From NCBI GenBank assembly GCA_900617105.1, contig UYFQ01000173.1, positions 1 through 64,000 on the forward strand: a DNA stretch of 64,000 nt. The letters run 5' to 3'. The DNA comes from Hydrurus foetidus (lineage: Eukaryota). The translations under genes were made by a program, and so were the position numbers. Positions within the stretch are counted from its first letter, which is position 1, and every line of letters begins with the position of its first letter. Of the stretch, positions 39 through 58,974 are shown one piece after another. Below the pieces are notes generated by a model, which did no database searches, was not told where the DNA came from, and saw only the letters and a list, made by a program, of their open reading frames with translations.

Positions 39-3000
39 TTGGATCTGATCATCGGACGCAAGTCCCTGAATCAACACAACTTGTTTGTGCTGACGCCGAA
101 ACGTATGGGCTTTGACCCTACGCTAATCGAAACGTCACCCAGCCCAGATGACATCGGTCTACTTCCCTTAAGGGCAGAGTCCGACATCGGTACAGATTCA
201 CATACCGACGTCTGTTGTCATCATAGTGACGCTGTCGGATCGCGTAGTCCTTGTACACAGTGTCGCCTGATTACCGACACTGCTGACAATGGAGACGAAG
301 GTCACTCGAGCACCCACCGTATTCCAACAGTGGGAGAAGAGTGGGGTCCATCTGCGCTATGGACGGGCAGTGGTATTAACCGCCCCCCTTCTGAGACCGG
401 GACGAGAGTGAACACAGTAACACTTAACGCCGCGAGCGTGTTGCCGTGCGGAATCAATCTCAATGGAGATGAGATTGATGATGACAAAACGGATGCGTTC
501 GGTCCGTTTCTTTCTGCATTGATGGAAGACCCTACCCCAACAGGTAGGGCGAACGACGTCATCTCGACAATCACCTTTGGTGGGTCGGAAGCTCTGCAAA
601 CAGCATGCAGAGCATTATGTACCGAATTTATTGACATCTTTCAAGATGAGGTGGCCCGTGAACCGGCCCGTATACCTCCTTTTGATATTGATCATAAGGC
701 GCGGCACAATGGGAAGTACCTGGTAACAGGACCCCGCTCCGCCCCCAATCCTCACAGAAGGAGGCGATTCACAATAACCTTCAGGATCTGATACGGATCG
801 GGGTGGTTGAAAAGTCTAATGCGGTGTACTACAGTCACCCTGTAGTAGTACAGAAGTCACCCGGACAATACCGTGTATGTATTGACTTCCGGCCACTTAA
901 TAACTGTACGGAGTCGGCCAGTTGGCCACTCCCCAGCATTCCAGCAATGTTTGAACGCATTGGCGCTCGTCAACCTGACATCTTTGGGGTTATGGACTTA
1001 ACGTCCGGCTACCATCAAGCACCCCTTACAGCATCAGCTAAAATCCTGACTGCATTCATATGCTTCTCTGGAATTTATCAATTCACTCGATTGCCTTTCG
1101 GCCTCAAACGTGCCCCATCATACTTCCAGGAGATGATGGCCACGGTTGTCCTTGCGGGCCTTTTATATGTAACATGTGAGATGTATCTCGATGATTGCAT
1201 TGTATTTGGTAATGGGCCTGACGAGTTTCTGCAGAGACTTCGTGATGTCTTCATCCGTTTTCGAGAAAAGAATTTATTCTTGAAAGCTAAAAAATGTAAG
1301 TTCGGAGTTACACGCCTCGAATACGTCGGACGTGTGATCTCCAAAGAGGGGTTATCTATGTCGGCTGAGAAAATAAAATCTGTTTTAGATTTTCCTCGCC
1401 CTAAAACCGTTACTGCCCTTAGGGGATTTCTCGGTTTGGCGAACTATTTTAGAGGTTTCGTACCAAACCACTCCAACATAGTAGCACCGTTACATAAAAT
1501 GACGGTGTCTACAACTCATAAACATTCCAGAGTAACTTGGAATGCTGAAACCATTAAAGCGTTTCAAGACATTAGGCAGGCCATTTCTCAATGCCCCCTG
1601 ATGCACTTCATTGATAATGTATCACCAATACATTTATACACCGACGCATCTGATTATGGTGTAGGTGGTGTATTGTTCCAAAAGGTTGGAGATGAGATGA
1701 AACCCATTTCATTTGTGAGTAAGTCACTCACCTTCTCACAGTTGAACTGGTCAACAATCCAGAAAGAAGCTTATGCTATCTACTTGTGTTGTACAAAACT
1801 TGATCCACTATTACGTGATCGCAAGTTTACGATTCACACAGATCATAAAAATCTGACGTACATGAAATCCTCCCCTAACTCGATGGTAGGGAGATGGTCC
1901 ATGGCTCTACAAAAGCTCGATTACACAATCGCATACGTGCGAGGGTCTGAGAACACGGTAGCGGACGCTATGTCTCGCCTCTGTGCTAATCTCTCGGACC
2001 TTGTCATCAAGGTTCAACCAGCCACCACTGGCACAGAACCGGATAACTTGCCGGGCCCGTTTTGCGGCGCCCTCAAGGTCATACCAGAAATGACTGATAC
2101 GCAGCGCGACGCACTCAACATGTGCCACAACAAGTTTGTCGGACACGGAGGCGTTAAACGCACCGTAGAAAAGCTGAAAAGCTTACCCATTGAGTGGGAA
2201 CACATGGTTCAGCACACCCACTTGTTTATACAACAATGTGCGTGCTGCCAGAAGATGAACGCTACACGCGTACCGATACGTGTACACAAGTACGTTACTT
2301 CTGCGTACAAACCTTTCCATGTCTTGAACATCGATTTCATCGGACCCTTCCCCGATGCCTCACACGTTCTTGTCATCATCTGTGCTTTCACACGGTGGAC
2401 AGAACTCTTTTGGTGTGCGGATAATACGGCCAAATCGGCTACCGATTGCCTTCTCCAACACTTTGGAAGATACGGTGCACCCCAAATGATCAGATCTGAT
2501 CGGGGTTCACATTTTGCTAATGAATTGATCAAACAATTCCTAGTGTCAACGGGTACACCCCACAACCTGACACTAGCATACTCTAAACAAGAGAATGCTA
2601 TAGTTGAACGAGTTAATAAAGAAATTAACCGGTACTTACGTTCGTTCCTGTATGATACAAACGACGTGTACCAGTACAAAAACTGCTTACCGTTTATACA
2701 ACGCATTTTGAATTCTTCAATTCACAGCAGTACCAATGCCTCCCCAGCAAGTTTATTGTTTGGTAACCAAATCAATCTTGATTCGGGCATACTTTCACCA
2801 TTCCCACAATTACCGGAAGTGGAAACTTCCGCATCGAAAGTGGTCTGTGAGATGTATCACATCCAGGATACCCTGATTGCCCAAGCACAAACTGCTTTGC
2901 GCACAATGGACGCGGCTCATATTGCCACAAGTCCACAGGATATAACGGTTTTTCCCGTCGGTTCATATGTGTTGGCTAGATACACCACACAACCGCCCAC

Positions 3001-3376
3001 ACGGTTACACACGTTGTGGCGGGGACCGTTTCAAGTGATATCGATTCACAACTCTGATTATACGTTGTTAGATATAACTACGAAGAAACATAAACATCTT
3101 CATATTAGTAATCTTAAACAATTTGTTTTCAATCCGAAACATACGGATCCTGCTGATGTAGCACGCCGCGATTATATGGAATTCTTTATTGATTCCATTC
3201 TTCAGCACCAAGGCAATTCCAGACGCAAAACCCAAATGCGGTTTTTAGTCAAATGGACTGACTTTGATGACTCACACAATACGTGGGAGTCGTGGAAGAA
3301 TCTTCGTCTTACAGACGCTCTTCACACATATTTACGCCTTCACGGCATGTCGAAAATAATTCCGACAGAAAAGTAA
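39..3376 (+). CDS. pol: Gypsy pol (RT, RNase H, integrase, chromodomain) with a frameshift near 700
   Basis: DLTSGYHQ, LPFGL, YLDD; TDAS, TDHKNL; HHCC (CHNKFVGH..CACCQ); DFIGP/SDRG/ERVN; GPF; chromodomain FLVKWTDFDDSHNTWE. The QWEVPGNRTPLRPQS frame links the two ORFs. Confidence 0.95.
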
Positions 3377-3391
3377 GTTCCCAAGGAACGA

Positions 3392-3488
3392 CCTACACAT
3401 TATCTTTTGAAGATTCCTCCTCATTTTTACAACTTTAAGTTGCTTTTCAGGAGGTTTAGTCAGTAAAAATCTGACATAAATGTGTAGG
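3392..3488 (+). ncRNA. Conserved structured cis RNA element (cloverleaf with ENE-like arm) in the Gypsy 3' UTR
   Basis: Four helices; homologous copy with compensatory changes at 39878-39985. Confidence 0.75.
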
Positions 3489-4437
3489 GGAACACTCAAT
3501 GTTACAACACATCTAGGCACTCTCGTTTCTCACTCCCCAAACTCTCACATGTACAAATATCTGTATTTATCGTACGTATTTATTACTGCATTTTTGTATT
3601 TTTTTTATCTTTTTTCTGCATTTTTTTTCTCACGCTTGAGTCATATTTGTTTTGTTACACACTGTAGCTAGAGACTCACCAAGGGAGAGAGGGAGAGAGG
3701 AGAGAGAAATAAGAAAACGAGAGATAAGTAGGGGTAGTGTGGCTCCCTCAGGGTCTGCTACCCCATTCAGCCGATTAGATGCTGTTTCCACCTTAGTACC
3801 TTCGTGTTCACAGCCACGACTATCAGTCACTAGCTAGTTTGTGCTGCTTTGCAGAAGTTACTAGCGTACCTTCTGTTGCATCCCTAACTAATTAGCTCCT
3901 TTTAGCCTTTAGACTTCCCTTCTCTTTTGCCTTCCAAGGTCACAGCGCCATCTTAAATTTGTTGGCAAGCAGCGGTGAAGATGAAGAACGTCGTCGACAC
4001 AAACTCGAGCAGCGACTTTTACTGCTACCGGCTGCGGGCTGATGAATCTCATGACTTTCAGCCGCTGACAGCCCGGGCTACGGGCTGTGTCTTCAAAATG
4101 GCACACCGGCTGCGGGCTACGAAAGTCGATCAGCCCCCATCCCTAAAAATTTTGATTTTCGTATTTTCGAAAAAGCAGAATCCTTATGTGGGTGTGAAGG
4201 ACCAAGGAATTGGGATTCGGCGCCAACTCAATTTTACATTTCTTGGTGTCTTCAGCCTGTATAGTTACGACCGGCACAATACATCCTTATTTTGAAAAGC
4301 GTCTGCGAGGGACTGTTTCCTCCTCCCCTCATTGGCCTGCTAGTTGACAGTGTTTTGAATTTGTGAGATCGCAGACGAAACGGGGATATCGCCATTTTCT
4401 GGCGCTGCCGTCAGTACCCCACGCACTGCCAGGCAAG

Positions 4438-30522: not shown

Positions 30523-32271
30523 CTATTCTACTATTTCTGTTATCACCACTGACGTGTCACTTTCTGTGGGTGGCTCCGACCCACTCAGTGTTTTGTCCAG
30601 AACATTGATGAATGGGAGGGGTAGGAGGCTTCCTAAGCTGCACAGCAGAACAAGCATAGGGAGGTTATCGAAATTCTTCTCCGTCACCCCTAGTGATGAC
30701 GTCAGCAGCGCACCCAATTCAGAAGCCACTGTCCCTGCGCCGTTATATATGGACATGAGAGTGGCAAATAAAGTTCCTTCGATCCCAGGGGGGCATAGAG
30801 TGCTCGCTAGCACTAGGGTGGGCATGAATGCAATCTGTCCCAACACCGTAAGTACGACCGTGTCAGTGAGAGCGAACACTTGATCTGGTATTCCGAGTAC
30901 TCTATTATAGTGCGTCACCAACATCAACTGAGTGAGGCTCAGTGGAACAGACAGTAGGGACGTCCACAGAATAACCTTCTTTATGGAGACGTCTTTGAGG
31001 AACGTTCTGTAGATAGTCACCCCACACAGCGCGGCTAAACTAGCTGCTAGACGCACTCTTCCTAAGAACTCCGGACCAAAACCCAGCTCCCCAGTGGTGA
31101 AAAAGAACATAGCAGAGTCTGGTGTGGGTGTGGCTTGCCATGCGAATATGAAGAGCACAGGGAGGAATATCTTGGGGTTTATCAATGTGTCCTTCAGTGT
31201 GGTGAGCTGATCCGTCACAGTGGATGTGAACTCTTTAATTGACGGCCGGAATATTTCCGCCTTCTCGTCTATCAAGAAACTTACAGCTGATATGAGGAGA
31301 GGAAAGACAGCTGTCAGGAGAAAAACTGTTTTTGGTGTGACTGTTTGAAGGAGCGATCCCGAGAAATAAGCAGAGAGAATGCCGCCCACCGCTGCGGCAG
31401 ACCAGCACAGACTCTGCAAGTCACCAGCAGCCACATTGACGACTGGGAGGCCCTCTGAGTCAGAGGTAGCTGCCGCGTCTATGCTATATTCTGCGTCTGC
31501 TGCAGATCCAGCAACATCAAGTGTTTTCTGTACTGATGATGATGATGATGATGAGACATTCGACATTATGAAAGAGACAGGAATCGTCTGCTGCGTCAAC
31601 AGCCGACTCTTCTCAACAGTGATGCTGTCGGCGACTACGTCAGATACAGCTACCGATGCAGAACCCAGAGTGATAGCTGCCACTGCTGATGCTGTGTCCG
31701 TTACTACAGTTCCGAGCGCAAGCCACGATAAACACCCGATGATGCCAGCAATGATGAGATAAGAGCGACGCTTGTATCCAAAAATAGGTATTCCGTCAGA
31801 GAGGAAGCCATACAACGGCTTAATCAGCCATGGAAGTGAGGTTATGCCACCGATTGCTGCCATGTCCGTTGGTGATAAATGCAACTCGTCTTTCATGTAA
31901 AATGACACAGCAAGTCTAGATAGCCCAAGGGCACCTTGCACAAAGTAGACCGTCAAGATTGAAATAAGTTCTGGAGACAATTCTATCCCAGCAAGAAGGA
32001 GCTTCTTCTTGTCCAGTGCTGAACTACTTGAGTTCAAGTCAGTCGGGACTCCATCTTCAAATCTAGCGGAAAATATCTTTGCTCTCGCAGCCACCGGCAA
32101 AGAGCAGCAATCGTAGTGCCTGTATGCTTGTGTTCTATCTTCGAATATATGATTTGGTCGTAAGTTCACCACGACAGACTGTTTCTGGGAGTAGAAAGAG
32201 TTGCATACTGTGGCGCTTGATAATGCGATAAGTACAACCTTCATGAGCGATGAATAAGAAGGAAAAAGCAT
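30523..32271 (-). CDS. Folate-biopterin transporter (BT1/FBT, MFS), predicted plastid-targeted
   Basis: VYFVQGALGLSRLA, LPWLIKPLYGFLSD, GYKRRSY, LCPPGIEGTLFATLMS; signal peptide followed by CNS-F and a transit-like region. Confidence 0.93.
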   Translation of the reverse strand: MLFPSYSSLMKVVLIALSSATVCNSFYSQKQSVVVNLRPNHIFEDRTQAYRHYDCCSLPVAARAKIFSARFEDGVPTDLNSSSSALDKKKLLLAGIELSPELISILTVYFVQGALGLSRLAVSFYMKDELHLSPTDMAAIGGITSLPWLIKPLYGFLSDGIPIFGYKRRSYLIIAGIIGCLSWLALGTVVTDTASAVAAITLGSASVAVSDVVADSITVEKSRLLTQQTIPVSFIMSNVSSSSSSSVQKTLDVAGSAADAEYSIDAAATSDSEGLPVVNVAAGDLQSLCWSAAAVGGILSAYFSGSLLQTVTPKTVFLLTAVFPLLISAVSFLIDEKAEIFRPSIKEFTSTVTDQLTTLKDTLINPKIFLPVLFIFAWQATPTPDSAMFFFTTGELGFGPEFLGRVRLAASLAALCGVTIYRTFLKDVSIKKVILWTSLLSVPLSLTQLMLVTHYNRVLGIPDQVFALTDTVVLTVLGQIAFMPTLVLASTLCPPGIEGTLFATLMSIYNGAGTVASELGALLTSSLGVTEKNFDNLPMLVLLCSLGSLLPLPFINVLDKTLSGSEPPTESDTSVVITEIVE

Positions 32272-33158
32272 GCTAGACTCCGCAAACCCTAGCCGCGGCT
32301 AGGCTTCAAACCAAATCTCTATTTGAAGACAGAGTTGTAAATAGTAGAAGCAGCCTCCAGTCTCCAGTTGGAGTTGGTTACACATCGTTCATCGTTCGGC
32401 GTCTCCTCGTTGACCTTCCGCTTTATAACTCTTGGCCGTCCATCGGGACGTTCCTGTCTTGTTCTACCGTAAATGTTAGTGTGGGCTGTATGCTTCCAGC
32501 GAGACTGCTCGATCCAATTAAGAAGAACTTGGTATTGGGTGGGGCGATTCTACGAGCCCGCTAGCGGTGGATGTGCTCCGTATGTTGTGTGGGAAATGAA
32601 AATTAGTGTGTTTCTAATGCTTTTTATTTTTGTGTTTTTATTTACAGACAATTATGTGCTTGGATGTAATTCTCTCAATTTGTTACATTCCTGTCTTATA
32701 CTGTGTCTTTCCTGAGGGAAAGCACTAAATTGGTTAACTGTTAGTGGAACAAGCAGAGTTAGTTTTGCTAATTCCGTTGGTCGCGGAGTGGCGACAGAGT
32801 CAAGACCTCTTGCGAATGGTTTTTTCGCTGACGGTTCAATTACAGCTTCAAAATTTGCTGTTGCACCTTGCATTTTGTGTGTTGTTGATGCGAATGCTGG
32901 TTCTAGTGATATTTGCTATCTGTGATAATTTTTACTGTATTTGTCGTCAACTGTTGTGATTGCAACAAATGGTATTATATTGGGGATTGTCCGTGATTGG
33001 AATATCCAATCGGTAGGTCCATATTTACAAATATAGTTGGTATTTCTCTGTCGATGACCTCATGGAACTCTGAGGGTTTAGGCATTAAATATGTTGGTAT
33101 TTGTCCCCTAAATGCGAAACCAACTCGATTTGATTTCGATGATGTGATTCGATTTCAA

Positions 33159-33299
33159 TGGGTGACCCCGGGAAAGAAAAAATCTAGGATTCTATCGAAA
33201 ATCTAGACCCCCCCCCTCCCCCCCCCTAGTCTAAATTCCAGCTGAAAGTCTATTTTTTCGAATAGAATCCTAGATTCTTTCTTTTCAGGGGGTCACCCA
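33159..33299. repeat. ~140-bp imperfect palindrome with a central C-run
   Basis: TGGGTGACCCC..AATCTAGGATTCTA..TAGAC is inverted against GTCTA..TAGAATCCTAGATT..GGGGTCACCCA. Confidence 0.9.
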
Positions 33300-33709
33300 A
33301 TGATTCGAAAGACTCGAGACCAACACGTGCGTGTGATTCCACGTACAAAAAACTTGCCAAGGAATAAACGAGCCCTGTAGCCGTCTGGGGCCCTCGGGAC
33401 CTTGGACCCCATTCCGTCTGTTTGGGTTCATACCCAAACACACTGTAGACTTCTAGGTAGACTCCTAGCACCCTGGTAGGATGTTTCCCTGCTCATATAT
33501 AGTTCAACAACCCCTTTGTAAGCCTAACCCAACACCTCCTAGCCCTCTAGCCTAGTTCCTTCAGGGCCACAGTGACGTCACTTCCCACCAGCTTCTATAG
33601 TTTCCTAGTGTTCATTCGTGTTTTTCGCCGTCTTCCAGTGCTTCGCTGGAAAGTTTAAGAAATCCCTCGTGAAGAGGACTTTCCAGAGTTCCCTCTACTC
33701 AGAGATCGA

Positions 33710-36700
33710 TTGTTTTTGGCGGAGCAACGTGCTATTCGAGAGGAACTCGAAAACCGCTGCCCAACTCCGGAGATTACCTACGCCGACGACGATCCAGATC
33801 GTCCGCCTGACAATCCTCCGTCTAATCCATCAACTTTCACCGACCCACGTCCGTGGACAGTAGCTCCTACAGTCCTACGTCATTCTCTTGATAGAGAAAC
33901 CGCGAGTTCATCGCTTTATAACGCCTCTAATTACTACTCTACTCCTTCCACACACCCAGCACTCTCTTGCGTAACCCCTGCACCTTCAGCTTTTAAGCGA
34001 AGTCGACCGGTTTTCAAACCGAGAACAGTTGAGAAGCGACTTCCAGCAAGTTCGCTCCGCTGTATACCGAGGTTTCAACACGAAACCTTGTCGAATTTGT
34101 TGGAAACCAACGAATTTCTGAGTGTTACGCCTGTTTCTGTTTTGCAAACTCGACCAACTTATAAGTCGACATTCACACCGGTTCAACAAACCGAGTCAAA
34201 CCTAAGCAATCCACTTAGAGAGAAAAACGTTCCGGGGTTATATCCCGTTGAGCGTGGAAACGCTTCTTACGAGGCGTCGGGAGATAGTTTTCTATACGAA
34301 AATCTCCAGAATATAATTCCAACACTTCGTGTGGAATTATTGACTGAAAACACTCACCCTATGGTGAAGAAGAACCCTGTTCAGCCTTTACGGCGTGGAT
34401 CTAACCCGCAAACAAGGCGGAGAAACCCCTTGATGGAGTCGGAGTATGAGAATTCAACTTTGGAAGAAAATTCTGATTTACCCGCTTCATATGCGGATGA
34501 TAACCCTGATGAGGGAGATATGGACATGGAATCCTTTCCTTCTGATCAACATCTGACTGATCTAGAAGAGTGTGGAGAGATTCCATACGACGCCCAAAGT
34601 CCTTTTCAGGAACTTGTTGAAACCGAACCGTCGATTTCGAGTAGCTCGTCGAGCTCATCCAGCGTCATTGCTGTACCGCGGACTCCTGAACCTCGCGTTC
34701 CCGATCCTACCCTGCTTAACGCAGCAGTCGCACCCATCGTTAGCGATGGAGTACCACGTGAGAAACCACGTGAGCAACAGAGACAGATACCTCTCTCGCC
34801 CGTCGTCATCGACGTAGTACCCAACCCACAACCGAACCCTCAGTACAATATGGAACAGGTTACGACGGCGTTGAAGCAGACAATGACTGGCGGTTTGAAC
34901 CTACAGAAACCGTTATTCATCATTGATACCCCAGAGATAACTGGAGAACAAGCTGCCCAGTTTCAGAACCAAGCCAATCAATGGCATGAGAACTTCCTGG
35001 TACACCAGGTGGTGGTTAACCCTGCCACCTATGTGGTACAGTATGCGTTCGCGAGCGATCCAGAGTTCACTCTCATCCCTCCAAGCAAATACTCAACATG
35101 GTACAATCATGTTACAGTCAAACAGGCTGCCCAAATCATAACCAAATACTTTGGCGACAGAAATGATATTGGTAGAACACTCGTCGAGAACTTCTCACGA
35201 CTTGAAATCTCTTTCTGTTACACCAACGCAGACATTGAGAGAAAATCCTTCATGGCTCTCAAGGCGTTAACAACGGTCTATGAGAATACCCAACCGATCA
35301 CTCCGGCGCAGCATGCTGCACTGATAGTTACGATCGAGAAAAAACTGAAACCGGATAGTCAGCTTAAAAGCGACTATTTCGCGGCTCGTGGCAACGAGGG
35401 TAAACCTATACCGAACGAAACGTGGGAACAAGCGTTCACTCGTCTTGGTAAATGCATCTTCAATGTTAGGAAGCTCGTTGAACGAGTTGCTAATTATGGC
35501 GATACCTCCGCTATTCATACTCTGTTTAGCAAATACCAGGAGCAGGAGACTCGGCAGGCCAGAACACCGATAATCCCTGAACAGCGTTCTTACGCTGCCG
35601 CTGTCTACCTCAAGTCAGCGCTGGCGAACTCACCAGCTAACCCTCAACCTTCTGCTGCACCTGCACATGCTCATGCACACGCATCCTCACCCAGTGCAGC
35701 AGTGCTGAGGAGACCAACAACTGAATCAATAATTCAGTTGTTGCCGCAACCAGCGCCAATCCCATGTCGCTCATGCGGTCACACTGGACATGAAGTCAGA
35801 CTCTGTCCAGTTCTGTTTCGCACAGACGCCAACCATAGTGAACTCCACCTTCAATGGAAAGATTCAACAGCGGGTAAGATGTGGCATTCATATGGCTTCG
35901 AAGCTTATGATGATGGAGCCCAACTACCAAACCATGCTGTCCGCTACCTGGTCAAACCAGTGTCCGAGTTTAGATACTCGATGCTCCAACTACCCAACAA
36001 GCGTGCTCGTTTTGACAATGGAGGAGCTACCGTACCTACGTTACCCGGTCAACACGACCCCGCTAACAATGCACAGTACGCAGAAACACGCAGAAACAGA
36101 AAACAAGGTAAATCTGTTTCCTTAAACGCTATTGTTGCAGCCTCTATAACCAGAATAGAGATTGATTCTAACTTCTTATCTTCCTGGATTTTTATTAATC
36201 AGCGAAGTATAGTCAAGGACGGGGTGCGGGTCCAAGTGCATACCAGCCCCAACAACCACCACCATCCCACCCTTAGGGCTGAACGAGTTCTGGCAAAGGT
36301 CCTACTCGACACCGGGAGTCTCCCTGGCGACTTTATTAGTCAAGATTTTGTAATTAGTTTAAATGCTCAAGATTTTGTTTATACTTCTTCTAAAGCTTTA
36401 ACTATATGTTCGGGTCTAGATAACACATGTTATGTTAGGGACCAAGTAATTGATATTGGAATGACTTTTGTCACCCATAATTTATTAATTAATACCATTT
36501 TCTTAACGGTGCGGATTATTCCAAACACCATCGACTTAATTCTGGGTCGAACAACTCTTAAGAAATATGACTTCTTCGAGAAGACTCCCTACGAAATAGG
36601 GAGACCTAATATGGAGAACTCCTTCGAAAGAATGAAAGTTTTCTTATCTGCTGAGTGCATTCCGTCGGAATGTGTGGGCAAGAAGGATGATTTGGTATGT

Positions 36701-39700
36701 CCTCATTCTGGTAACAGTACCATGGCTTATCACAAAATAGACTCAAACAGAGTCGCTAACTGTTCTGATGTCGGATGCTCTAGTCAACCAAACGCCGCTG
36801 GGGTCGAACCTACGCGTAACAGTTGTAACTATGTATCAAACCATAGTGGTGTCATACGTACTCGTACGTACACCCTAGCACATTTATGTGAAATGCCAGA
36901 AGGTACTCCAACAGCTACTACAGTGGAAACACCTAGTGGTATCATAATCTCTTCTGACGAGATAGATAATGATAAGACGGATACATTTCGCCCATTCTTA
37001 CCTGAACGCGTTCAGCAGACTGCTCCGCCTCCAAGGCCAGAGGACTTTTTGTCACAGATAAAAATTGATGGAACGGAACACCAACAATTTCTTATTAGAC
37101 AACTCTGTCTTAAATATGCAGACATATTTAGTGATAAGCTAGCAGTTAAACCGGCTAGACTTCCCCCCTTTGTTATAAAGGTCAATAAAAGGGATTGGGA
37201 ATGTTCTAAAAATAGAACAGCCGTTCGTCTCCAATCAGTTCGAAAAGAACGAGAGATCAAACGTGCCATCGATGAGATGTTGAACTCGGGAGTCATCGAG
37301 GAATCGAATGCGGTTTATTATAGCCATCCTGTCATAGTACAGAGAACAGCTGACTTGTTCAGATTTTGCATTGACTACCGAAATCTGAACAAATGCACAC
37401 AGGCTTCCAGCTGGCCGCTTCCGAACATTCGAGCTCTTTTTGAGAGAATCGGCCATCAACAGCCAGTCATATTCGGAGTTATGGATTTAACTTCTGGTTA
37501 CCATCAGGCACCTATGGATCAAGGATCAAAGGTCCTGACTGCGTTCATTTGTTATTGCGGTGTATACCAATTCACCAGACTCCCCTTCGGTCCTCGGAGA
37601 GCCCCCTCTTACTTCCAAGAGATGATGGCGACTATTGTCCTTAATGGACTCATCTACATTTCTTGTGAGATGTACTTAGACGATTGTATCGTTTTTGCAC
37701 GAGGCCAGGACGAGTTCCTGGAGAGACTAGAACGAGTCTTTCGACGTTTTCGCTGTTTTGGTTTACTGCTTAAAGCAAAGAAATGTAGATTTGGGATGTC
37801 TCAGATCGATTATGTTGGCAGACAGATCTCTTCTCAGGGCATATCAATGTCAAAAGAGAAGATTGAATCTGTCCTAAATTTCCCAAAACCCATGACACTT
37901 ACTTCTTTACGAAGTCTGTTGGGCTTGGCGAATTACTTCAGGAATTTTGTTCCTTTTCATTCCGACATCGTTGCACCCCTTCAGAGGATGATTGACCCTA
38001 AAGGGAGGAAAAAGTCAGCCCTTCAGTGGACTACGGAAGCAGATAAGGCTTTTGTTCTCATAAGACAAGCCATATCCCGCTGTCCGCTGCTACACTTCTT
38101 AGACGAAGTGTCACCCATCGAGTTATACACCGATGCCTCTGACTACGGAGTAGGTGGAGTATTATTCCAAGTAACTAATTCTGTCAAGAATCCAATCTCA
38201 TTTGTGAGTAAGTCGCTTAGCGCAACACAAGTTAAATGGTCTACCATTCAAAAGGAGGCCTATGCAATATATTTTTGCTGTAAACAACTTGACTCTCTTA
38301 TAAGAGATAGAAAATTTATCATCCATACTGATCATAAGAACTTAACCTTCTTAGGTCAAGATCCATCAGCAATGGTAAATAGATGGTCGATGGCTCTCCA
38401 AGAGCTAGACTACACTGTGTCCTATATAAGTGGACCCAAGAACTTCATTGCCGATGCACTGTCTCGGTTATGTCCTAACTTAACACAGTTGGTGATTCTT
38501 GACCCACCTACTAGAGTGGAGGAAATTGATGTTCATATATCAGCTCTACATGAAGTTGCACCTGTTACCGAGTTACAACTCGAAGCTATAGAGATGTGCC
38601 ATAATGCCATGGTGGGACATGGAGGCATTGCTCGTACCCTCGATAAACTGTCAAGTATAGATGAGGAATGGCTCGACATGACATCCCATGTTAGAGACTT
38701 CATCCGCAATTGCGCATGTTGCCAAAAAATGAGTGTGATCAAAATCCCTGTTCACATTCATAAATACACAACGTCTACTTATAGACCGTTTGACACAGTC
38801 AACATCGACTATATTGGTCCGTATCCGGATAATGGATATGTTTTGGTAATGATTTGTTCATTCACAAGATGGACTGAGCTTTACTGGTGTGTTAACAACA
38901 CTGCACAATGTGCATGTGAATGCCTTCTACAATTCTTCGGTAGATTTGGTGCACCAAGCATGATCCGATCGGATCGTGGATCTCATTTCATGAATGAAAT
39001 CATACGTGAGTTCTTACTCCGTACAGGGACCCCCACAACTTAACCTTGGCATACTCAAAGCAGGAGAATGCTATAGTGGAAAGAGTTAATAAGGAAGTTA
39101 ATCGACACTTACGTGCTTTTACATTCCACTCTACAAATCTCGAAGCCTACAGGCTTTGCCTGCCTTTCGTGCAGAGAATTATCAACAGTTCCGTACATTC
39201 AAGTACGGGAGCTTCACCAGCTAGCTTGCTGTTTGGAAACCAACTAAACCTTGATAGAGGTATTCTTGTTAGGTTTCCAGATCAAACACAAGTTCCGACT
39301 CGTTCGTCGAAGGTGATTGCAGACATGCTGCTCATCCAAACGCAACTCAACGATTTAGCGATAAATAAGTTGAAGACAACAGATATTAACCGTGTAGCCG
39401 TTAATACAGAACCTAGAACTATTTTTCCAATAGGTTCGTACGTTCTCACTCTCAACCCTAGAGGTGCTGAGACTAGATTGCACAGTATGTGGCTGGGCCC
39501 ATTTCTTGTTGTAAGCTATGATAAAAGTGAATACACTATTAAAAATCTTATCACGAAGAAAAATCGTGATGTTCATGCAAGTCAGTTGAAACCGTTTAGG
39601 TTCAACCCAACTTCCCAATCACCGACTGACACAGCTCGTCGCGACTACATGGAATTTTTTATTGAAGAGATCGTTTCCCACGTTGGAAATAAAAAGAAAC

Positions 39701-39882
39701 CTTCTACAATGAAATTTTATGTTAAATGGTTGAACTACGATTCAAACCATAATTCATGGGAACCATGGAAGTCCATGCGCGCCACAGATCAACTTCATAC
39801 GTATCTGCGCAATAACAACATGTTGCACGTTATTCCAAAAGAATTTCGAAATATGACTCCCAATACAAGGGAAGAACCGTGA
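33710..39882 (+). CDS. Single-ORF gag-pol with a 1-nt frameshift near 39030; start codon uncertain (first ATG at 34361)
   Basis: CRSCGHTGHEVRLC, LLDTGS, YLDD, TDAS, HHCC, DDE core, GPF, chromodomain FYVKWLNYDSNHNSWE. Confidence 0.95.
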
Positions 39883-39985
39883 ATGATATCTTTTGAAGAT
39901 TACTCCTAAATATTTTTTTTACCTCAATTACTTGAGTTTTTTTTTACGGAGGTTAGTCAGTACAAATCTGACATAATCATTCACG
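39878..39985 (+). ncRNA. Second copy of the structured 3' UTR RNA element
   Basis: Same junction sequences and helix layout as 3392-3488. Confidence 0.75.
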
Positions 39986-40104: not shown

Positions 40105-40250
40105 TGCCCTTCATTATGAAGCGCTAGTTTAGTTACTCTTCCTTCTGAAGCGTTAGTTTAGATCATAAAAATCATTTCTAAAAAAATCATTTTCACTCTT
40201 CCTTAAGAAGCGTTAGTTTACTTGCCCTTCCTAAAAGCGCTAGCCTAGTT
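40105..40250 (+). repeat. Four short repeats with core CTTC..AAGCG(C/T)TAG in the Gypsy B 3' UTR
   Basis: Cores near 40119, 40148, 40208 and 40235. Confidence 0.8.
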
Positions 40251-41489
40251 TATTCATTCTCAAAATTGATTTCAATTTTAGTTAAAATAAGTGGGGGTAG
40301 TGTAGCCGTCTGGGGCCCTCGGGACCTTGGACCCCATTCCGTCTGTTTGGGTTCATACCCAAACACACTGTAGACTTCTAGGTAGACTCCTAGCACCCTG
40401 GTAGGATGTTTCCCTGCTCATATATAGTTCAACAACCCCTGCAAAATCCTACCTTTTTCTAAAGTAAGGTGGAACATCCATCAATTTCCTACGACATAGT
40501 GTGGAATAAAGCGTCGAACAAGGAATTGGACTCATCTGCTGTGCACACACTCATAATCCTTTTTCATCCTCCAACATTGGTTCGCCATACGTTGACTGTG
40601 TGATGTTTGTCATGAAGCACAGTCACGGCTCAGAAGTTCAGCACTTTCTCGTAAGAAGATGTCATATTACAATGTTAATTGCTCAGAACAAGAACATGGT
40701 GCATTATCGCAACCTAACTCCACTATGCCATAGTGGCACCCTTCCTTCAAGTATATTCCCGTTCCAGGCAGTTAAATTGTATCGCGCTACGATCTAGAGC
40801 AGAGAGAAGTATATGTCCAGCGCTATCGCATGGACTGTGATACTAAACTAGATTATGGATGTGGTACTTTGATATCTTACATGCGTATTGATCAGCGCTT
40901 GCTAGTGCACTGACAGCTATCGGACATACACACCAGTGCATACGATTTAAGAACATGTGTGTATCATAGTATTGTATTGAGTTGTATTGGCTCACTGTTT
41001 ATTTGATCGGTCAGTGGAGGAACTGAAGATTATATGCACCATCTTGTGGCTTGTAATCTTCACTTGATACGAAGCATATCGTATCGCATAATATCGTAGG
41101 TATTTACAGAATTCGCTATACGTTTTATCGTCACTTGCATTTCCTTTGCTTCACTCTCTTCTCCTCGAAGTTTGGCGGAATGTCTCGACCGGCGATGGCG
41201 GCGGTAAAGATTTAAGGAGACTTGTATGTGGGAGATTTGGTGCGTGATGTTGGTGAGTTGCACGTGGGAGTTTTCCTGGGTCGTTTAGTGGGCTTATAAG
41301 TAGGGCACTTGGTTGGCGATTTCGTTTTCGAAGACTTGCGTGTTGGAGTCATTGTGGGCGATTTCGATGACTTGCTCTCTGGAACTGTAGGTTTTACAGT
41401 GGTCGGTGTCATCGAAGGTGACGTCATTGTGGGTAACAACAGCAACATTAGTTGCTTTTGCTGAGCACCCAATTATCATATCTCAATGA

Positions 41490-46236: not shown

Positions 46237-47399
46237 GATTTACTTGTGGAGTGGATGTCAAATTGGCTTGATTACAAGGCGAAAGTTGTCGACGTGGATA
46301 CCTAGGAGTTTAGGATCCCAGATAGAAATCTAGAAGAGGGGGGGGGGGAGAATCCTCCAAATTTCTATCGGAATCCTAGATTTTGAAGTCTAGAATAGGT
46401 TTAGACAGTCTAGATTTGAGTTTTTTGGGTGTTTTTGTAATCAACGTAATAAGGCCACAATTCAAGGGAATGATCGGATTTCCGCAGAAATCGTGTTTTC
46501 GTGTTTGGGTGCAACGGATAACTGATACAGTGATCCCTGACTTGTTGGAACCAAATCACTTGAAATGTCCTTTATACTTCTAATATAATTCGACTGCCTT
46601 ATCCGAAGGGGCGTTGAGTCACCAGGCGCGCTTTCCTGTGATCAGTGGACCGCTTTGGATGAAGGGTTGAGCTTTGACGGCACAAGCGCTTCTTAATTAC
46701 TTGATAAAGAAATATGCGATGGTAGTTGTGGTGGCAACAGCGACAATTCAATTCTATCTTATCAGTTGACGAATTTAAAACGTGGACGAATTTGTATCTT
46801 AAAACGAATTTGTATCTTTCTGGAAGGATTGTCGTACGCATCACTTCAACGGTATTCAAAACATACACAATACAGGTACGCCATCAGATGGTTCGTACCG
46901 GCGCCGAAAAGCTACCGGCGACCGGTGGCCTAACCACTATACGGCACGAGGCTGGTGATGACGTCACCGTGGAAATCAATTAAATTATAGCGTAAGTACG
47001 TGGAATGCCGAACATACCCCTTGATGCGTGGCATCCGTTAAAGATTATCTCAGGAATTTCGTGGATCCGCGCCCGTAAAAAATCGATGGTGCTTCGGTCC
47101 CCCCCAGTAAAAAAAAATGTTTTCGTGGCCGCGACTATGCGTAGAATACAGCGATCGCTCTCCGAACTTCAGCACAACATACAGACACAGCACGCGCCCC
47201 CATGCCTCTCGAGTGAACTCTTGCACCAGGTGAGCCAATCTTGATAACCTTGTTTCTGTTTACTGGAATATGACAAGCCGCAATCGTCCCGGCGGGAAAA
47301 TATATTTGACAACCCGTGATCTAACATCACCAAGCAAAACCTGGGGCCTGGAAGTCCTGATCCGGTTTCCCTGGTGCAGAGGATTGGGCGGGGTGGCCA

Positions 47400-49257
47400 C
47401 TGTGCTCTGTATGTTGTCCTGTCAGGGAACGACGGAATTTCCCGAAAAGCACCCCGTGTAGAGGCTTCGTTAGGACCATGTCCCCAGTAGGCAAGTACCT
47501 CACATCGATTTCCTTGCTCTCAATGTAATGTGATACGAAGAAATGTCTGATTTTAATGTGCCTGCTTCTCTCGCTTGTTGAGCGCCCCTTCTTCGCTCTG
47601 GTTGTCTTGGAAGATCACTGCAGCTCCGAGGGAAAGTCCGCTAGAGATCAGGTACTCCCTTGTCCATAATACTTGCGACAGTGCATCTGAAATGCCGACC
47701 AATTCCGCTTCTGTGGATGAACTCGTTACGATTTTCTGCTTTCCAGACTTAATATAGATTACGGCATCACCCAACATAATCACAACTCCCGTCACAGATT
47801 TTCCATCCTCGTATATGTCAAAGGAGGCATCCACGAAGACTCTAAGCTGGGTTTCGCGGCCAATCTTGAGGATCAAGTGCTAGTCTTGTGTGTAAAGGAG
47901 GTAGGAAAGTATCCTGTCAACCTTCTTTTCGTCTTCTTCAGTTGGGCAGAGGACCCTAGTTGCACAGAATGACACTGATGTAAGTATATCTCCACGCACT
48001 CTCTTTGCCAGGTAGTGGAGCGTCATTACCACCGAGTGGAATTCCTCTTGCTTCTTCGCGGATAACTTTGGGCTCGTTGGATCGGATTTGAAAAGGTTGT
48101 CCGTTGCAGGCGTCGTGCATCTCTTGACTACATTGTATTTTCTTATGACATCTTTCACATATCCATCCATATGTAGTGTGACTTGGCCTTGCTCCTTGAA
48201 GTCCCAGTGAATGCCAAGGAAGTTGTGTTGCAGACCAGTGTTGGCAGTTACGCCCCCATACTTCTTCTTCAAGGTGTCCGCTATAAAGGTCAGCACTTCT
48301 TCGTCCTTCGATGTGATGAAAAGATCATCGACATATACTAGTATCATATCGATATCCTCACCACGAACTCTTCTAAACGAACATATGTCGTAGGGGTTCT
48401 TCTCGAAGCCCATGCTGTCCAGTGTTGAAGCTAGTCCGTTGTACCACAGGACGGCGCTCTGGATGCAGCCGTAGAGTGCTTTCTTGAGCCGTACAGTAAT
48501 TTTCTTGTCCGTGCGCACGTACTGTCTGTACGTCGGGTCGAGACGGCACATGATCTCTGCAACCTCGGGCGTCAACATCATCTCTACTCGGGGTCCCAGC
48601 ATAATCGCATTGAGATATGCGGCCTTGTGATCCAAGGTCATAACGTGGTGACCTTTGTGTGCCGCGAGTAACGCCATAGCCAACACAGAGGTGAGGGCAA
48701 CTGTAGGAGAGGAGACCTCTTTGTCATGGAACAATGATCGATCTTGCCTGTGCCCACCCGCAACCACACGCCCCTTAATCTTGTCGATTACCCCATTAGG
48801 CAGCTTCTTTGGCGTTAGGAATATCTTCGATGGAATAGCTCCAATAGGCTTGTATTGCGGATCCAAGCATTCCCAGACATCCTTCTGAATACAGTTCTTA
48901 AGCTCTTCCATGGATGCGGCGTCAACCAATGCATCGCCATACAATGACCTCGCTTCCTTCTTTGTAAGCGCCGTAAATATGCGTCGTTCGGGTAATGCGT
49001 TGTGTACACTATAACCTTGATTGATTGAGTTGCGTAACTCGACTAGCTCTTTTGCTTGTGTCAGGACTCTTTCAGGGGAATCATCGACTAATAGAGCTGT
49101 TGTTTCCTGTAGGTCGGGCAACAGGACTGGGTCACTTGCGTCTCCTTCGGATTGTACCAGTTGTGTGGCCTAACTATGGGCTCGGCGGTGGGACTGCTGG
49201 GTCAGGGCGCGGGGGCAAGAGGAAGGCAGCTGTGGTGCTGGTGCTATTGGCTAAAGA
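47400..49257 (-). pseudogene. pol: Copia 2 RT-RNase H
   Basis: KGRVVAGG, KKALYG, YVDD, SSTEAE; contains stops and small deletions. Confidence 0.92.
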
Positions 49258-52200
49258 TGTGGTTAGCTTACAGATAAACACAGAGATAGGCAAGTCATGA
49301 ATCGGATGGCTCGGATCGTCCCCGATCCGAACCGAACGTACGCCGGTACCCGTACAGCTGTACAGCTGTGCGGGTCACAATGGCCTCCCTCTCTCGAAAA
49401 AAAGGTTGTACTAAATTTTTCATGAACAATTTATCTATGCTTAAATACTAACATATAACTACTATTTCACGTTGAACATTGAGTTTTTTTTTTTTTTTAT
49501 AAACCTATATGTTTCATACTGTATATCGGTTAACGATAATTTTCAGCGAATTTACTTGGAATCAAGTGTTTTAGGTTTTTAGCAATTAAGAACTCGTGGA
49601 CTTTTTCAGCGTCACGCATGTTTTTCCACGGTTCCCAAGTGTTTCTGTCGTGGGGATAATTTAGCCACTTGACGTGAAACTTTAATGTTCCCACCACTCG
49701 GATGTTCCCTTCCATTGCTAGGATATCTTCGATAAAGAATTCGAGATAATCTCGTCGGGCGATATCGGTTGGGTTGACCTTTGTAGGGTCAAACTCAAAT
49801 TGTTTAATATTTGATACATGGTATCTTTTTTCGCGGTTGGTAATAAGATCGAGTAGTGTATACTCGTCGAGATCGTTAGCGACCACTTGCATGGGACCTT
49901 TCCATAAAGTGTGCATGCGTGTTGGTTTTGATGTGCGGTGGGTAACCAGTACCAACGAGTCGATTTCGAACGTTGTGTAGTCGGTGGAACCGCCTGCTTT
50001 TCGTTTCTCGTCCGCTTCTTTGAGTAGTTCAGCAGTGATTCTGATGAGTTCATCTTGCATCTGCATAATTTTCTCAGTAGAATGGGTGACATGAGCCATG
50101 TCTAAGTTTATCTCATCTCGAGGGAGAAGGATGTTGGCATCAAGGTCAATAGCATTGCCGTATATAAGCTTTGCTGCTGTTGACTGTGTCCGTACGTTGA
50201 ATGTCGTATTTATAATTCGTTGTACGAATGGTAAAATTTCTCGGTAGTTTTCCGTAGTTGCACGGTCAAATGTAAATGCCGTGATGTGTCGGTTAATTTC
50301 CTTATTCATACGCTCTACTATCGAGTTTTCTTGCGAAGAGTATGGTAGAATAAGGTTGTGTGTTGTACCGGCAACTTTTACAAATTCCTCGAGGATTTTG
50401 TTTACGAAATGGGAACCGTTATCGGATCGCAGGAATTTGGGAGCTCCGTAGCGACCGATGTGTTCTATTAGGCCTGTTACGGCCGATTTTGCAGTATTAT
50501 CAGTTGTGGCTGATAGTTCGACAAACCTTGTGAAGGTGTCTACCATAACAAGGATGTATCCTTTATCCGGGAATGGACCAATAAAGTCTATGTTTATGCA
50601 TTCCATAGGTGCATATGTTGATGTTGTGAAACGATGGGTGACGGGTTTTTGTTTGTCAGCAGACATCTTTTGGCAACACGGGCATTGTTTAATGTATGCT
50701 CTTATATCGTGTCTCATGCCTTCCCATACTTTCCCTATTTTTTAGGTTTCGCAAAGTGCGATTGAATCCTCCGTGCCCAACGGTAGAGTTGTGGACACGC
50801 ATTAAGTATGCATATATTTCCGCTGCAAGCGGTTTGCAAGTTAGGATTGCTGTTATGATGTGTTTCGGCATCTTGTTTTTACATAGGCGTGACATTGCGT
50901 CAGCGACTTCATTATTTTTCCCAGGGATATACCCTATCGTAAAATCTAATTCCTGTAGCGCACAGCGCCATCTTCCGACCATCTCATTTTTATCCTTGTG
51001 CAGGAAAGTAAGATTTTTGTGATCGGTCAGGATAGTAAACTTACGATCTCGTAGCAGGGCGTCGAGATAGTCACAGCAAAAGTAAAGGGCGTAAGCCTCT
51101 TTTTGTATTACGGACCATTTCAACTGGGTCTTGGTAAGAGATTTGCTTACGAGAGCGACGAGTTGTTTGACTCCGTCGACTTCTTGATATAAATAACCAC
51201 CTATACCGTAGTCAGACGCATCTGTCATGAGGGTAATAGGTGCTACATCGTCGATGAAATATAATAAGGGACTCTTGGAGATAAGATCTTTGACTAACGT
51301 AAACGCGTCGGCCGCTTCGTCTGTCCAGACAAGCAATGTTTGCTTTTGGCGGCGTGATCTATCATTTTGTGTAGCGGTGCTACCACATTTGAGTGATTTG
51401 GTACATGATCCCTAAAGTAATTGGTGAGACCGAGGAACGAACGTAGTTCAGTTGTCTTTCTTGGCATCGGAAAGTCAGTCACACCCGTTATCTTTTTGGA
51501 GCTCATTGATATACCTTCCTTAGATATTTGTCTACCAACATATTCAACTACTTTGACGTTAAGTCTTAGCTTTGCAGCCTTGAGTGAAATGTTTTTATCT
51601 TCTAGACGTTGAAACAATGTTTCTAAACGTTCACAGAATTGGATGTGTCCATCAGCATATATGATGATGTCGTCTAAATAGACTTCACAGATGCTGTATA
51701 TAAGGCCAAGTAGTACTATTGACGCCATCATCTGTTGAAAGTATGATGGGGCCATCTTGGGACCGAATGGTAGTCGTGTGAATTGGTATATACCCATAAA
51801 TGTTATAAATGCGGTAAATACTTGTGCCGCCAGTGTTATTGGGGCTTGGTGGTATCCGGCCGTAAGGTCGATTACGCCGAATACGTTTGGCCGTTGCGCG
51901 CCAAGTCTGTATAACATTTGTTTTATATTTGGGATCGGCCAACTTGCAGATTCGGTTGCCTCATTGAGGTTCCTGTAATCTATGCAGAATCGGAGTGAAC
52001 CGTCTGGTTTATTTGCAAGTATTACTTGGGAGTAATATGAGGCATCGGATGGTTTTATTATTCCCTTTTTGAGCATTGCTACGATTTGTTTTCTGATTTC
52101 CTCTTGTCGCATCGTTGAAGCGACTCTGGGAGCACCCCGATTACGGAAGTGTTTCCATTGAGGTATGTTTACCTTTTTGAAATCAAAGGGGGAATTCGAG

Positions 52201-58271: not shown

Positions 58272-58974
58272 TTCAGATTCTCTCTGGCCAAAAACTCTTT
58301 GGGCTTCTCTCACGCAGTGATCGCGACTTCGCTGCAGTAGTTATTTCTTTATGATCGGATTTCCGCAGAAATCGTGTTTTCGTGTTTGGGTGCAACGGAT
58401 AACTGATACAGTGATCCCTGACTTGTTGGAACCAAATCACTTCAAATGTCCTTTATACTTCTAATATAATTCGACTGCCTTATCAGAAGGGGCGTTGAGT
58501 CACCGGGCGCGCTTTCCTGTGATCAGTGGACCGCTTTGGATGAAGGGTTGAGCTTTGACGGCACAAGCGCTTCTTAATTACTTGATAAAGAAATATGCGA
58601 TGGTAGTTGTGGTGGCAACAGCGACAATTCAATTCTATCTTATCAGTTGACGAATTTAAAACGTGGACTTGAATTTGTATCTTTCTGGAAGGATTGTCGT
58701 ACGCATCACTTCAACGGTATTCAAAACATACACAATACAGGTACGCCATCAGATGGTTCGTACCGGCGCCGAAAAGCTACCGGCGACCGGTGGCCTAACC
58801 ACTATACGGCACGAGGCTGGTGATGACGTCACCGTGGAAATCAATTAAATTATAGCGTAAGTACGTGGAATGCCGAACAGGGAACGATAAACGTCTCCGA
58901 TAAAATTTTACGATAAAATATTTTATCGGTTTTCAATTAATTCTACCGTATTTCGTGTTCGGTGGCCCCTTTTA

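What the first reader, a model, noticed from the sequence alone, without database searches (positions are those of the whole stretch)
39878..39985. Second copy of the cloverleaf/ENE-like element supplies the compensatory evidence
Seen: outer stem CGTGAATGAT/ATCATTCACG (39878-39887/39976-39985, overlapping the TGA stop); invariant TATCTTTTGAAGATT; CTCC/GGAG arm with U8/U9 tracts around CTCAA-TTAC-TTGAG; and GTCAG-TACAAAT-CTGAC, whose loop is one base from the tRNA TTCAAAT loop. Junction bases are conserved while helix sequences turn over. I did not find the element in Gypsy C. Inference: lineage-specific selection on RNA structure.
Basis: partly seen in the sequence, partly recalled or inferred. 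Interest (0 to 1): 0.8.

Follow-up and report, generated by a model that had tools for sequence, protein, structure and literature searches.

The report
Four-armed poly(A)-clamp RNA in algal retrotransposons
Just after their last gene, several distantly related jumping genes, likely of an alga-like microbe, keep the same predicted four-armed RNA fold while the neighbouring sequence drifts freely; one arm looks like the U-rich clamps that grip and protect an RNA's poly(A) tail, so it likely stabilises the element's RNA, but that function is untested.

Summary
Window 39878-39985 (Gypsy B) and 3392-3488 (Gypsy A) fold into the same four-way junction at the start of the 3' UTR of chromodomain Gypsy retrotransposons in a probable stramenopile. 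Six of 10 outer-stem pairs change on both sides and none breaks, while fourfold-degenerate sites are saturated (30 of 108 identical) and the rest of the UTR is unalignable. The fold recurs, with the same linker lengths, in four metagenome relatives at 41-42% protein identity (two types), and more loosely in a fifth. Public contigs add paired changes in the U-loop arm. Gypsy C lacks it. It is therefore older than the A/B pair.

It is not a tRNA mimic: helix order is wrong and the T-loop-like loop is not kept. Best reading: a single-domain, ENE-like poly(A) clamp (U4-9 on both strands of an internal loop) mounted on a four-way junction whose two small arms are conserved in sequence. I found no such ENE scaffold in the papers I could read; the key 2016 catalogue was unavailable. 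Triplex formation, expression and function are untested; an export or packaging role is the main rival.

The parts
39878..39985 (+). Whole RNA element, copy B: four-way junction P1-P4 at the start of the 3' UTR, overlapping the pol stop codon
39878..39887 (+). P1 outer stem, 5' strand (partner 39976-39985); sequence turns over, pairing kept
   Evidence: 6 of 10 pairs changed on both sides vs copy A
39888..39900 (+). P2 small hairpin ATCT/AGAT, flush on P1; stem letters unchanged in A, B, L002, L003, so pairing is predicted, not shown by covariation
39903..39951 (+). P3 arm: lower stem CTCC/GGAG, U-rich internal loop, apical hairpin; the ENE-like arm
   Evidence: CTGC/GCAG in L002/L003
39913..39920 (+). 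5' U tract (U8)
   Evidence: length varies among close copies
39923..39936 (+). Apical hairpin P3b CTCAA/TTGAG
   Evidence: paired changes in relatives of copy A
39937..39945 (+). 3' U tract (U9)
   Evidence: length varies among close copies
39952..39975 (+). 4-nt linker ending TTA, P4 hairpin GTCAG/CTGAC with 7-nt loop, 3-nt linker ATA; the most sequence-conserved block among public contigs
39976..39985 (+). P1 outer stem, 3' strand
3392..3488 (+). Copy A of the element, 15 nt after the pol stop of Gypsy A; U5/U4 loop
33659..39882 (+). Gypsy B gag-pol (RT, RNase H, integrase, chromodomain) in two frames, with a frameshift near 39010-39043
33376..33571 (+). Gypsy B 5' LTR (TGTAGCC...GGCCACA)
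40286..40440 (+). Gypsy B polypurine tract (40286-40300) and 3' LTR, 140 nt identical to the 5' LTR and then cut short
698..3944 (+). Gypsy A pol (698-3376), 3' UTR and 3' LTR (3738 to about 3944, end judged from the terminal inverted repeat)
49380..49529 (-). Gypsy C 3' UTR: negative case, no element

Best explanation
It is a conserved RNA fold at the start of the 3' UTR of a chromodomain Gypsy family, and it likely works as an ENE-type poly(A) clamp that would slow deadenylation of the retrotransposon RNA. Shown: the position, the four-helix architecture by folding and paired base changes in P1, P3, P3b and (across distant relatives) P4, the U tracts on both strands of the P3 internal loop, and fixed linker lengths. 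Inferred: the RNA is polyadenylated in the 3' LTR some 100-500 nt downstream; the tail folds back into the U-loop as U-A-U triples with A-minor contacts on the C-G lower stem; the genomic RNA lives longer and transposes more, as shown for Arabidopsis Evade. Inferred more weakly: P1, P2 and P4 form a rigid platform (P1 stacked on P2) that presents the clamp, and the sequence-conserved P2/P4/linker face binds a protein or caps the tail end.
For: U tracts on both strands of an internal loop in all 7 complete copies held: 5/4, 8/9, 5/6, 8/5, 7/4, 8/5, 7/4 for A, B, L001-L005 (five distinct types), while the flanking helices change by paired substitutions. Public contigs laid on A: T3434G with A3438C in 4 of 4 runs; a contig type in 2 of 4 runs turns CAAC/GTTG into CCCC/GGGG and loses both partners 3418 and 3452 of one lower-stem pair (changes linked by equal depth). 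4 of the 6 readable single-contig loose ends 5' of the conserved block show U5-7, a new hairpin, and U4 or more. Close copies of B vary in U-tract length. The lower stem has C-rich 5' and GAG-containing 3' strands, the polarity of the lower domain of the tested Evade ENE (CTC...GAG; PMC12501189 Table S1). Position between ORF and 3' LTR as in Evade. No conserved encoded A run downstream (1 of 5 copies), so a third strand would be the tail.
Against: No triplex, stability or expression data; RNA-labelled runs gave only contigs, none over the element. 2 of the 6 readable loose ends (probably one family, runs X16 and X5) have only U3 and about U2-3, short for a clamp. One contig (X16, depth 14.4) breaks the top apical pair. 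The AAU bulge of Evade has no match: C in A, AC in B, an inserted hairpin in L001-L005; A and B put 2-6 extra bases between lower stem and 5' U tract; L001 and L002 close the loop with G-U rather than G-C, whereas flanking G-C pairs were essential in Evade. An ENE needs no P2 or P4, yet these are the most conserved sequence, so the clamp cannot be the whole story. In L002 the homologous lower stem has pair probability only 0.12 (1.2 kcal/mol above the free optimum) and L001 fits 3.5 kcal/mol above its optimum.
Confidence: 0.55

Rival explanations
1. A protein-binding cis element for nuclear export, packaging or translation of the unspliced genomic RNA, like the transport elements that murine musD and simple retroviruses carry next to the 3' LTR; the U tracts would be a protein site or flexible spacer.
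For: Same place as the musD MTE and most retroviral export elements (PMC4588558 passages). The strongest sequence conservation is in P2, the TTAG linker and P4, not in the U-loop arm. A relative with short U tracts keeps the P4 block.
Against: Symmetric U runs on both strands of a loop whose helices turn over are the ENE signature and are not needed for a generic platform; known export elements are about 400-500 nt against about 100 here; no Rfam match.
Confidence: 0.2
2. A self-contained tertiary fold or two-state switch: the U-loop is filled in cis by an A-rich hairpin loop of the element itself, and/or the P2 loop invades P4.
For: All 5 distinct copies have a loop with three or more A 3' of the second U tract (P4 loop in A and B, the inserted hairpin in L001-L003). 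RNAalifold picked a helix between the P2 loop and the P4 5' strand; it can form 4 of 4 pairs in 5 of 5 copies, with G-C, C-G, U-G and A-U at one position.
Against: That helix costs 2.5-7 kcal/mol against the four-way fold, rests on 4 bp picked from many possible helices, and one B-like contig has a P2 loop that allows only 3 of 4. The A-rich loops sit at different places in the two subfamilies and hold only 3-5 A, fewer than the U tracts.
Confidence: 0.13
3. A tRNA mimic processed by RNase P/Z (mascRNA-like) or used as a self-encoded primer.
For: Four helices; P4 in B is a 5-bp stem closed by G-C with a 7-nt loop one base from TTCAAAT. No tRNA-type primer site follows the 5' LTR of B.
Against: P1 is flush with P2 and 3 nt away from P4, the reverse of the acceptor/T-arm stack; ARAGORN 0 genes; loop differs in A and is lost in L002/L003; no CCA end; no significant pairing with the B LTR/leader (151 of 200 shuffles as good); cutting at P1 would release the U-loop arm from the genomic RNA; Gypsy C shares the palindromic primer-site region but lacks the element.
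Confidence: 0.04
4. Neutral leftover or chance hairpins in an AT-rich UTR.
For: The reverse strand folds as well in A and B (-31.8 vs -29.1, -24.7 vs -24.8 kcal/mol); a model built on A and B alone scores the distant copies weakly (E 0.66-4 over 92 kb; L001 not found).
Against: Synonymous sites between A and B are saturated (30 of 108 and 13 of 38 identical) yet the element keeps 76 of 108 letters and all pairs; rest of UTR at null level; descriptor hits 6 places in 92 kb on both strands, all right after a pol stop, and 0 of 600 shuffled UTRs.
Confidence: 0.02

Closest known systems
ENE of plant and fungal transposons, tested in Arabidopsis Copia93/Evade (PMC12501189) and rice TWIFB1 (described in PMC7583470, PMC13541005)
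   Same: Lies between the ORF and the 3' LTR of an LTR retrotransposon; U tracts of about 4-9 on both strands of an internal loop; C-rich 5' / GAG 3' lower stem as in Evade's lower domain.
   Different: One U-loop, not two; no AAU/adenosine-triad bulge; extra bases or an inserted hairpin beside the U tracts; the arm is one branch of a four-way junction with two sequence-conserved small hairpins; Gypsy chromovirus of a probable stramenopile.
KSHV PAN single-domain ENE
   Same: Single U-rich internal loop between short helices; about five possible U-A-U triples (PMC7583470 section 3.4).
   Different: PAN is described as a simple stem-loop; this one is embedded in a multibranch junction in a retrotransposon mRNA.
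MALAT1/MEN-beta ENE plus tRNA-like structure
   Same: U-rich loop together with a four-helix fold.
   Different: In MALAT1 the tRNA-like fold lies downstream, is cut off by RNase P, and an encoded A-rich tract is the third strand. Here the U-loop is inside the four-helix fold, the fold lacks tRNA geometry, and no A-rich tract is conserved.
musD transport element (MTE) and retroviral constitutive export elements
   Same: Structured cis element between pol and the 3' LTR of an unspliced genomic RNA.
   Different: Much smaller (about 100 vs 400-500 nt), no sequence or Rfam match, and it carries a paired-U internal loop.

Membership tests
ENE (poly(A) triple-helix stability element) | [quoted passage not shown] | tested here: met
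   7 of 7 complete copies, helices with paired changes; one relative type has only U3/U2-3
ENE (poly(A) triple-helix stability element) | G-C pairs immediately next to the U tracts | tested here: inconclusive
   C-G stems flank the loop in A, B and several contigs but with 1-6 spacer bases; G-U closes the upper side in L001 and L002
ENE (poly(A) triple-helix stability element) | In the 3' part of the transcript, upstream of a poly(A) tail | tested here: inconclusive
   In the 3' UTR, 107-315 nt before the 3' LTR in 5 of 5 copies measured; the poly(A) site is not mapped and no raw RNA reads were available
ENE (poly(A) triple-helix stability element) | Forms U-A-U triples with oligo(A) | not testable with these tools
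   needs melting, gel shift or probing
ENE (poly(A) triple-helix stability element) | Stabilises an intronless reporter / blocks deadenylation | not testable with these tools
   needs a cell or in vitro decay assay
Double-domain ENE (dENE) | Two U-rich internal loops separated by a duplex | tested here: not met
   one U-loop per copy
Double-domain ENE (dENE) | Conserved adenosine triad / 3-4 nt bulge below the 3' U tract | tested here: not met
   C in A, AC in B, inserted hairpin(s) in L001-L005 against AAT in Evade
MALAT1-type ENE with tRNA-like processing | Encoded A-rich tract followed by a downstream tRNA-like structure | tested here: not met
   A runs of 5 or more downstream in 1 of 5 copies; the four-helix fold contains the U-loop instead of following it
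tRNA / tRNA-like structure | Acceptor stem continuous with the T arm; conserved T-loop; detectable by tRNA scanners | tested here: not met
   linkers 0 / 1-2 / 4 / 3 nt; loop not conserved; ARAGORN 0 and Rfam 0
Small self-cleaving ribozymes and other Rfam families | Match to a covariance model | tested here: not met
   no match at gathering score in the window; at E up to 10 only sub-threshold chance hits around both copies; none on the element in 4 loci
Retroelement RNA export elements (MTE, CTE) | Between pol/env and the 3' LTR | tested here: met
Retroelement RNA export elements (MTE, CTE) | Binds the export machinery and drives export of unspliced RNA | not testable with these tools
   needs binding and fractionation assays
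Chromodomain Ty3/Gypsy LTR retrotransposon (host element) | RT, RNase H, integrase, chromodomain in that order, with LTRs and a polypurine tract | tested here: met

The most novel reading that the evidence does not exclude
A third architecture of poly(A)-binding RNA, beside single- and double-domain ENEs: a U-loop clamp built into a four-way junction whose conserved P2/P4 face couples tail protection to a second step (Gag or export-factor binding, or a P2-loop/P4 switch), so that the retrotransposon RNA is protected or released according to whether it is being translated or packaged; old and widespread in a large unstudied family of protist chromoviruses.
Probability: 0.25. Interest if true: 0.78.

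Novelty: new variant of a known kind. Interest (0 to 1): 0.55.

Why it matters
ENEs are known from viruses, vertebrate lncRNAs and transposons of plants, fungi, a slime mould and a fish, as simple stem-loops with one or two U-loops. If this element clamps poly(A), it extends the strategy to a stramenopile retrotransposon family and shows it on a new, compact (about 100 nt) junction scaffold with natural variants that already map which parts may change; that makes it an easy structural and reporter target and a possible new RNA-stabilising module. If it does not clamp poly(A), it is an undescribed conserved cis element of Gypsy RNA, whose export and packaging signals are poorly known outside yeast and mouse.

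Tried and rejected
No whole genome is held, so copy number and family-wide presence could not be counted. Pattern scans found nothing in viral contigs or prokaryote genomes; protein-led scans gave 0 loci in viral contigs and 1 locus without a UTR in genome contigs. RNAalifold on the MAFFT alignment of 6 copies did not recover the four-way fold (-3.9 kcal/mol, 9 pairs) because helices with turned-over sequence are misaligned; helix tables were therefore made by coordinates (my first P3b registers for L002 and for L003 were wrong, the unaided fold gives L003's). A covariance model from A and B alone does not find the distant copies genome-wide (E 0.66-4); restricted to the UTR it gives E 0.0019 (L002) and 0.015 (L003), nothing for L001, and a 26-nt LTR hairpin in C scores E 0.023, so this test is weak. 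The descriptor was written after seeing the copies and misses L001. L002 and L004 have identical elements (107 of 107) despite 519 of 600 identity in coding DNA; both come from one assembly, so a collapsed repeat cannot be excluded and I count them as one type, likewise L003/L005. RNA-labelled runs X18 and X20 had no contig over the element; contigs cannot show absence. P2-loop/P4-loop kissing (tRNA elbow) shows no covariation. Sm-site, C/D-box, H/ACA, hammerhead-core, B-box and readthrough readings were considered from recalled motifs and dropped because the letters are not kept in L002/L003 or no frame follows the stop. Strand could not be fixed by energy; the sense strand is inferred from U-rich loops and G-U pairs. 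The atlas look-up on the B gag region gave only generic Gag/protease leads. Earlier scan notes had no look-alike by sequence or by words.

Full report
Setting. The window is repeat-rich eukaryotic DNA with three Gypsy elements (RT, RNase H, integrase, chromodomain) and two Copia elements. The host is probably a stramenopile: among 120 listed homologues of the BT1 transporter at 30523-32298, the best with a species name are from Thalassiosira exigua and Ochromonadaceae sp. CCMP2298 (one gene, no tree). Runs that hold the DNA are mostly from freshwater and sediment. The finding lies in Gypsy B (5' LTR 33376-33571, gag-pol 33659-39882 with one frameshift, polypurine tract, 3' LTR from 40301, 140 nt identical and then cut short). 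It starts on the pol stop codon.

Observation. All quoted features are present. B and the copy in Gypsy A (3392-3488) fold unaided into the same four-way junction, each better than 200 of 200 shuffles, with helix probabilities 0.73-1.00. I name the helices P1 (outer, 10 bp), P2 (ATCT/AGAT), P3 (lower stem, U-rich internal loop, apical hairpin P3b) and P4 (GTCAG/CTGAC). A and B are far apart: 55-62% protein identity, fourfold-degenerate sites identical at 30 of 108 and 13 of 38, that is saturated. Yet the element keeps 76 of 108 letters; 6 of 10 P1 pairs change on both sides and none breaks, against at most 1 such pair when the partners are slid by 1-3 columns; 4 of 5 P3b pairs change on both sides. 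P2 and P4 are identical in A and B and so say nothing about pairing. The rest of the UTR is at null level (score 21 vs 20.0, 76 of 200) while the element scores 75 vs 16.7 (0 of 200).

Relatives. The integrase-chromodomain region has 284 relatives in public metagenomes. The one metagenome scan returned 6 loci at 41-51% identity to the B C-terminus; 5 reach past the stop. L002/L004 and L003/L005 (two types) carry the same architecture 18-69 nt after the stop; L003 folds to it unaided and L002 recovers P1, P2, P3b and P4, with the homologous lower stem 1.2 kcal/mol off its optimum. Linkers are 0, 1-2, 4 (ending TTA) and 3 (ATA) nt in A, B, L002 and L003. P4 becomes GTGG/CCAC, the lower stem CTGC/GCAG, P1 GGA/TCC or GGG/CCC. 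L002 vs L003: element 95 vs null 15.7, rest of UTR 23 vs 23.5. These copies insert a small hairpin 3' of the second U tract. L001 fits more loosely (3.5 kcal/mol off its optimum, missed by both the model and the descriptor) and I count it as probable. A descriptor written after seeing the copies hits 6 places in 92 kb on both strands, all right after a pol stop, none in Gypsy C, and 0 of 600 shuffled UTRs. A covariance model from A and B alone is weak on the distant copies, so their homology rests on position, fold and linker letters. In a 130-row FastTree of the integrase region the A/B group, the L001-L005 group and C fall in three separate branches, with weak support (71) between them. The element is thus older than the A/B pair; loss in C's branch is likely but not shown.

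Public contigs laid on copy A (4 runs, 80% likeness). Summed depth peaks on 3444-3479 (in X12 about 3300-3400 against 18 upstream and 81 downstream): many contigs with unlike flanks share the 3' U tract, lower-stem strand, linker and P4. No substitution is listed between 3449 and 3496. Paired changes, linked by equal depth: T3434G with A3438C in 4 of 4 runs; CAAC/GTTG to CCCC/GGGG together with loss of both partners 3418 and 3452 in 2 of 4 runs; CCTC/GAGG in 1 of 4. One contig breaks the top pair (T3434A with A3438C, X16, depth 14.4). A contig whose upstream letters resemble the end of B's pol has one outer-stem pair changed from A-T to G-C, a mismatch at the innermost pair, and a different P2 loop. 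Of 8 loose ends on the 5' side of the block, 2 are mixtures; of the 6 readable, 4 show U5-7, a new hairpin and U4 or more, and 2 (probably one family) show only U3 and about U2-3. These contigs are not shown to be Gypsy UTRs. On copy B the 40 substitution rows shown include none inside the element and 8 in the next 130 nt, but 63 rows were not shown; the U tracts vary in length. No raw RNA reads exist for it, so expression and ends are untested.

How it most likely works. The constant feature of the P3 arm is U on both strands of a loop between helices that turn over: 5/4, 8/9, 5/6, 8/5, 7/4 in the five types. That is the described form of the ENE, which binds the poly(A) tail as U-A-U triples plus A-minor contacts and blocks deadenylation (PMC7583470 section 3.4, read whole; PMC13541005 passages). 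In Arabidopsis Evade an ENE between ORF and 3' LTR raises RNA half-life, cDNA and new insertions (PMC12501189, parts 1-2 of 5 and supplement). The lower stem here has the polarity of Evade's lower domain. No encoded A run is conserved downstream, so the third strand would be the tail added in the 3' LTR. Departures: one loop, no AAU bulge, spacer bases or an inserted hairpin beside the tracts, G-U closing pairs in two types, one short-U family, and, above all, three extra helices whose letters are the best conserved part. I therefore put the clamp at 0.55, a protein platform for export or packaging at 0.2 (position as for musD MTE, PMC4588558 passages), a self-contained fold or switch at 0.13 (A-rich loops in 5 of 5 types; a P2-loop/P4 helix possible in 5 of 5 but 2.5-7 kcal/mol worse). 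The first two are not exclusive.

Not a tRNA mimic. P1 is flush with P2 and three bases from P4, the reverse of the acceptor/T-arm stack (tRNA geometry recalled; linkers). ARAGORN and Rfam find nothing. The loop resembles a T-loop only in B. The U-loop lies inside the fold, so MALAT1-style cutting at P1 would remove the clamp from the RNA. The element does not pair with B's LTR and leader better than shuffles (151 of 200), so it is not a self-encoded primer.

Novelty. ENEs in LTR retrotransposon UTRs are known; the reviews list single- and double-domain forms from plants, fungi, slime mould and stickleback. Searches for an ENE or cloverleaf in a Gypsy UTR, for four-way junctions in LTR elements, and for ENEs in stramenopiles (listings only, apart from the papers named) showed no such element. 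The catalogue of about 200 transposon ENEs (Tycowski, Shu and Steitz 2016), its supplement and the two 2021 structure papers were not held, so an entry there cannot be excluded. Earlier notes of this scan describe double-ENE-like modules in vertebrate CR1 elements, unchecked and of another form. Verdict: a real, selected RNA element; a new variant of a known kind if it clamps poly(A), an undescribed cis element if not; interest 0.55.

Noticed in passing
window 33571-33582; L002 3347-3358; L004 2322-2333; window 56360-56371: No tRNA-type primer site. A perfect 12-nt palindrome that begins with the last A of the LTR stands in its place in Gypsy B, L002 and L004 (different sequence in B and in L002/L004), and one stands upstream of Gypsy C gag where its 5' LTR is missing. 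Such palindromes occur 33 times in the 64 kb window, so this exact position is unlikely by chance. Tf1/Sushi-type chromoviruses self-prime (PMC6317226 passages; the word palindrome is absent there). Possible dimer-based priming; may deserve its own look.
   Followed up: partly
window 39893-39896 with 39957-39960; 3407-3410 with 3460-3463; same places in L001-L003: The P2 loop can pair 4 of 4 with the P4 5' strand in all five types, with four different pair kinds at one position; 2.5-7 kcal/mol worse than the main fold.
   Followed up: partly
window 49483-49498 region (minus strand), Gypsy C 3' UTR: Gypsy C, which lacks the element, has an encoded run of about 16 A in its short 3' UTR.
   Followed up: no
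window 3489-3737: The rest of the Gypsy A UTR is predicted to fold as one long hairpin that brings the purine tract back near the element.
   Followed up: no
window 40106-40242: Three to four short dispersed repeats (about 26 nt, ending GAAGCG(T/C)TAGTTTA) in the Gypsy B UTR before the polypurine tract.
   Followed up: no
window 46470-58879: A Copia element with 545-nt LTRs (96.5% identical) holds Gypsy C nested inside; Gypsy C has a 3' LTR but no 5' LTR.
   Followed up: no
window 33155-33303: A 150-nt element with long terminal inverted repeats (MITE-like) lies 70 nt before the Gypsy B 5' LTR.
   Followed up: no
window 58973-59464: Inverted repeat with 121-136-nt arms, about 90% complementary, 220 nt apart.
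   Followed up: no
L007 1-1008: A fragment of the A/B Gypsy clade sits in a bacterial metagenome-assembled genome, probably a eukaryotic contaminant contig.
   Followed up: no
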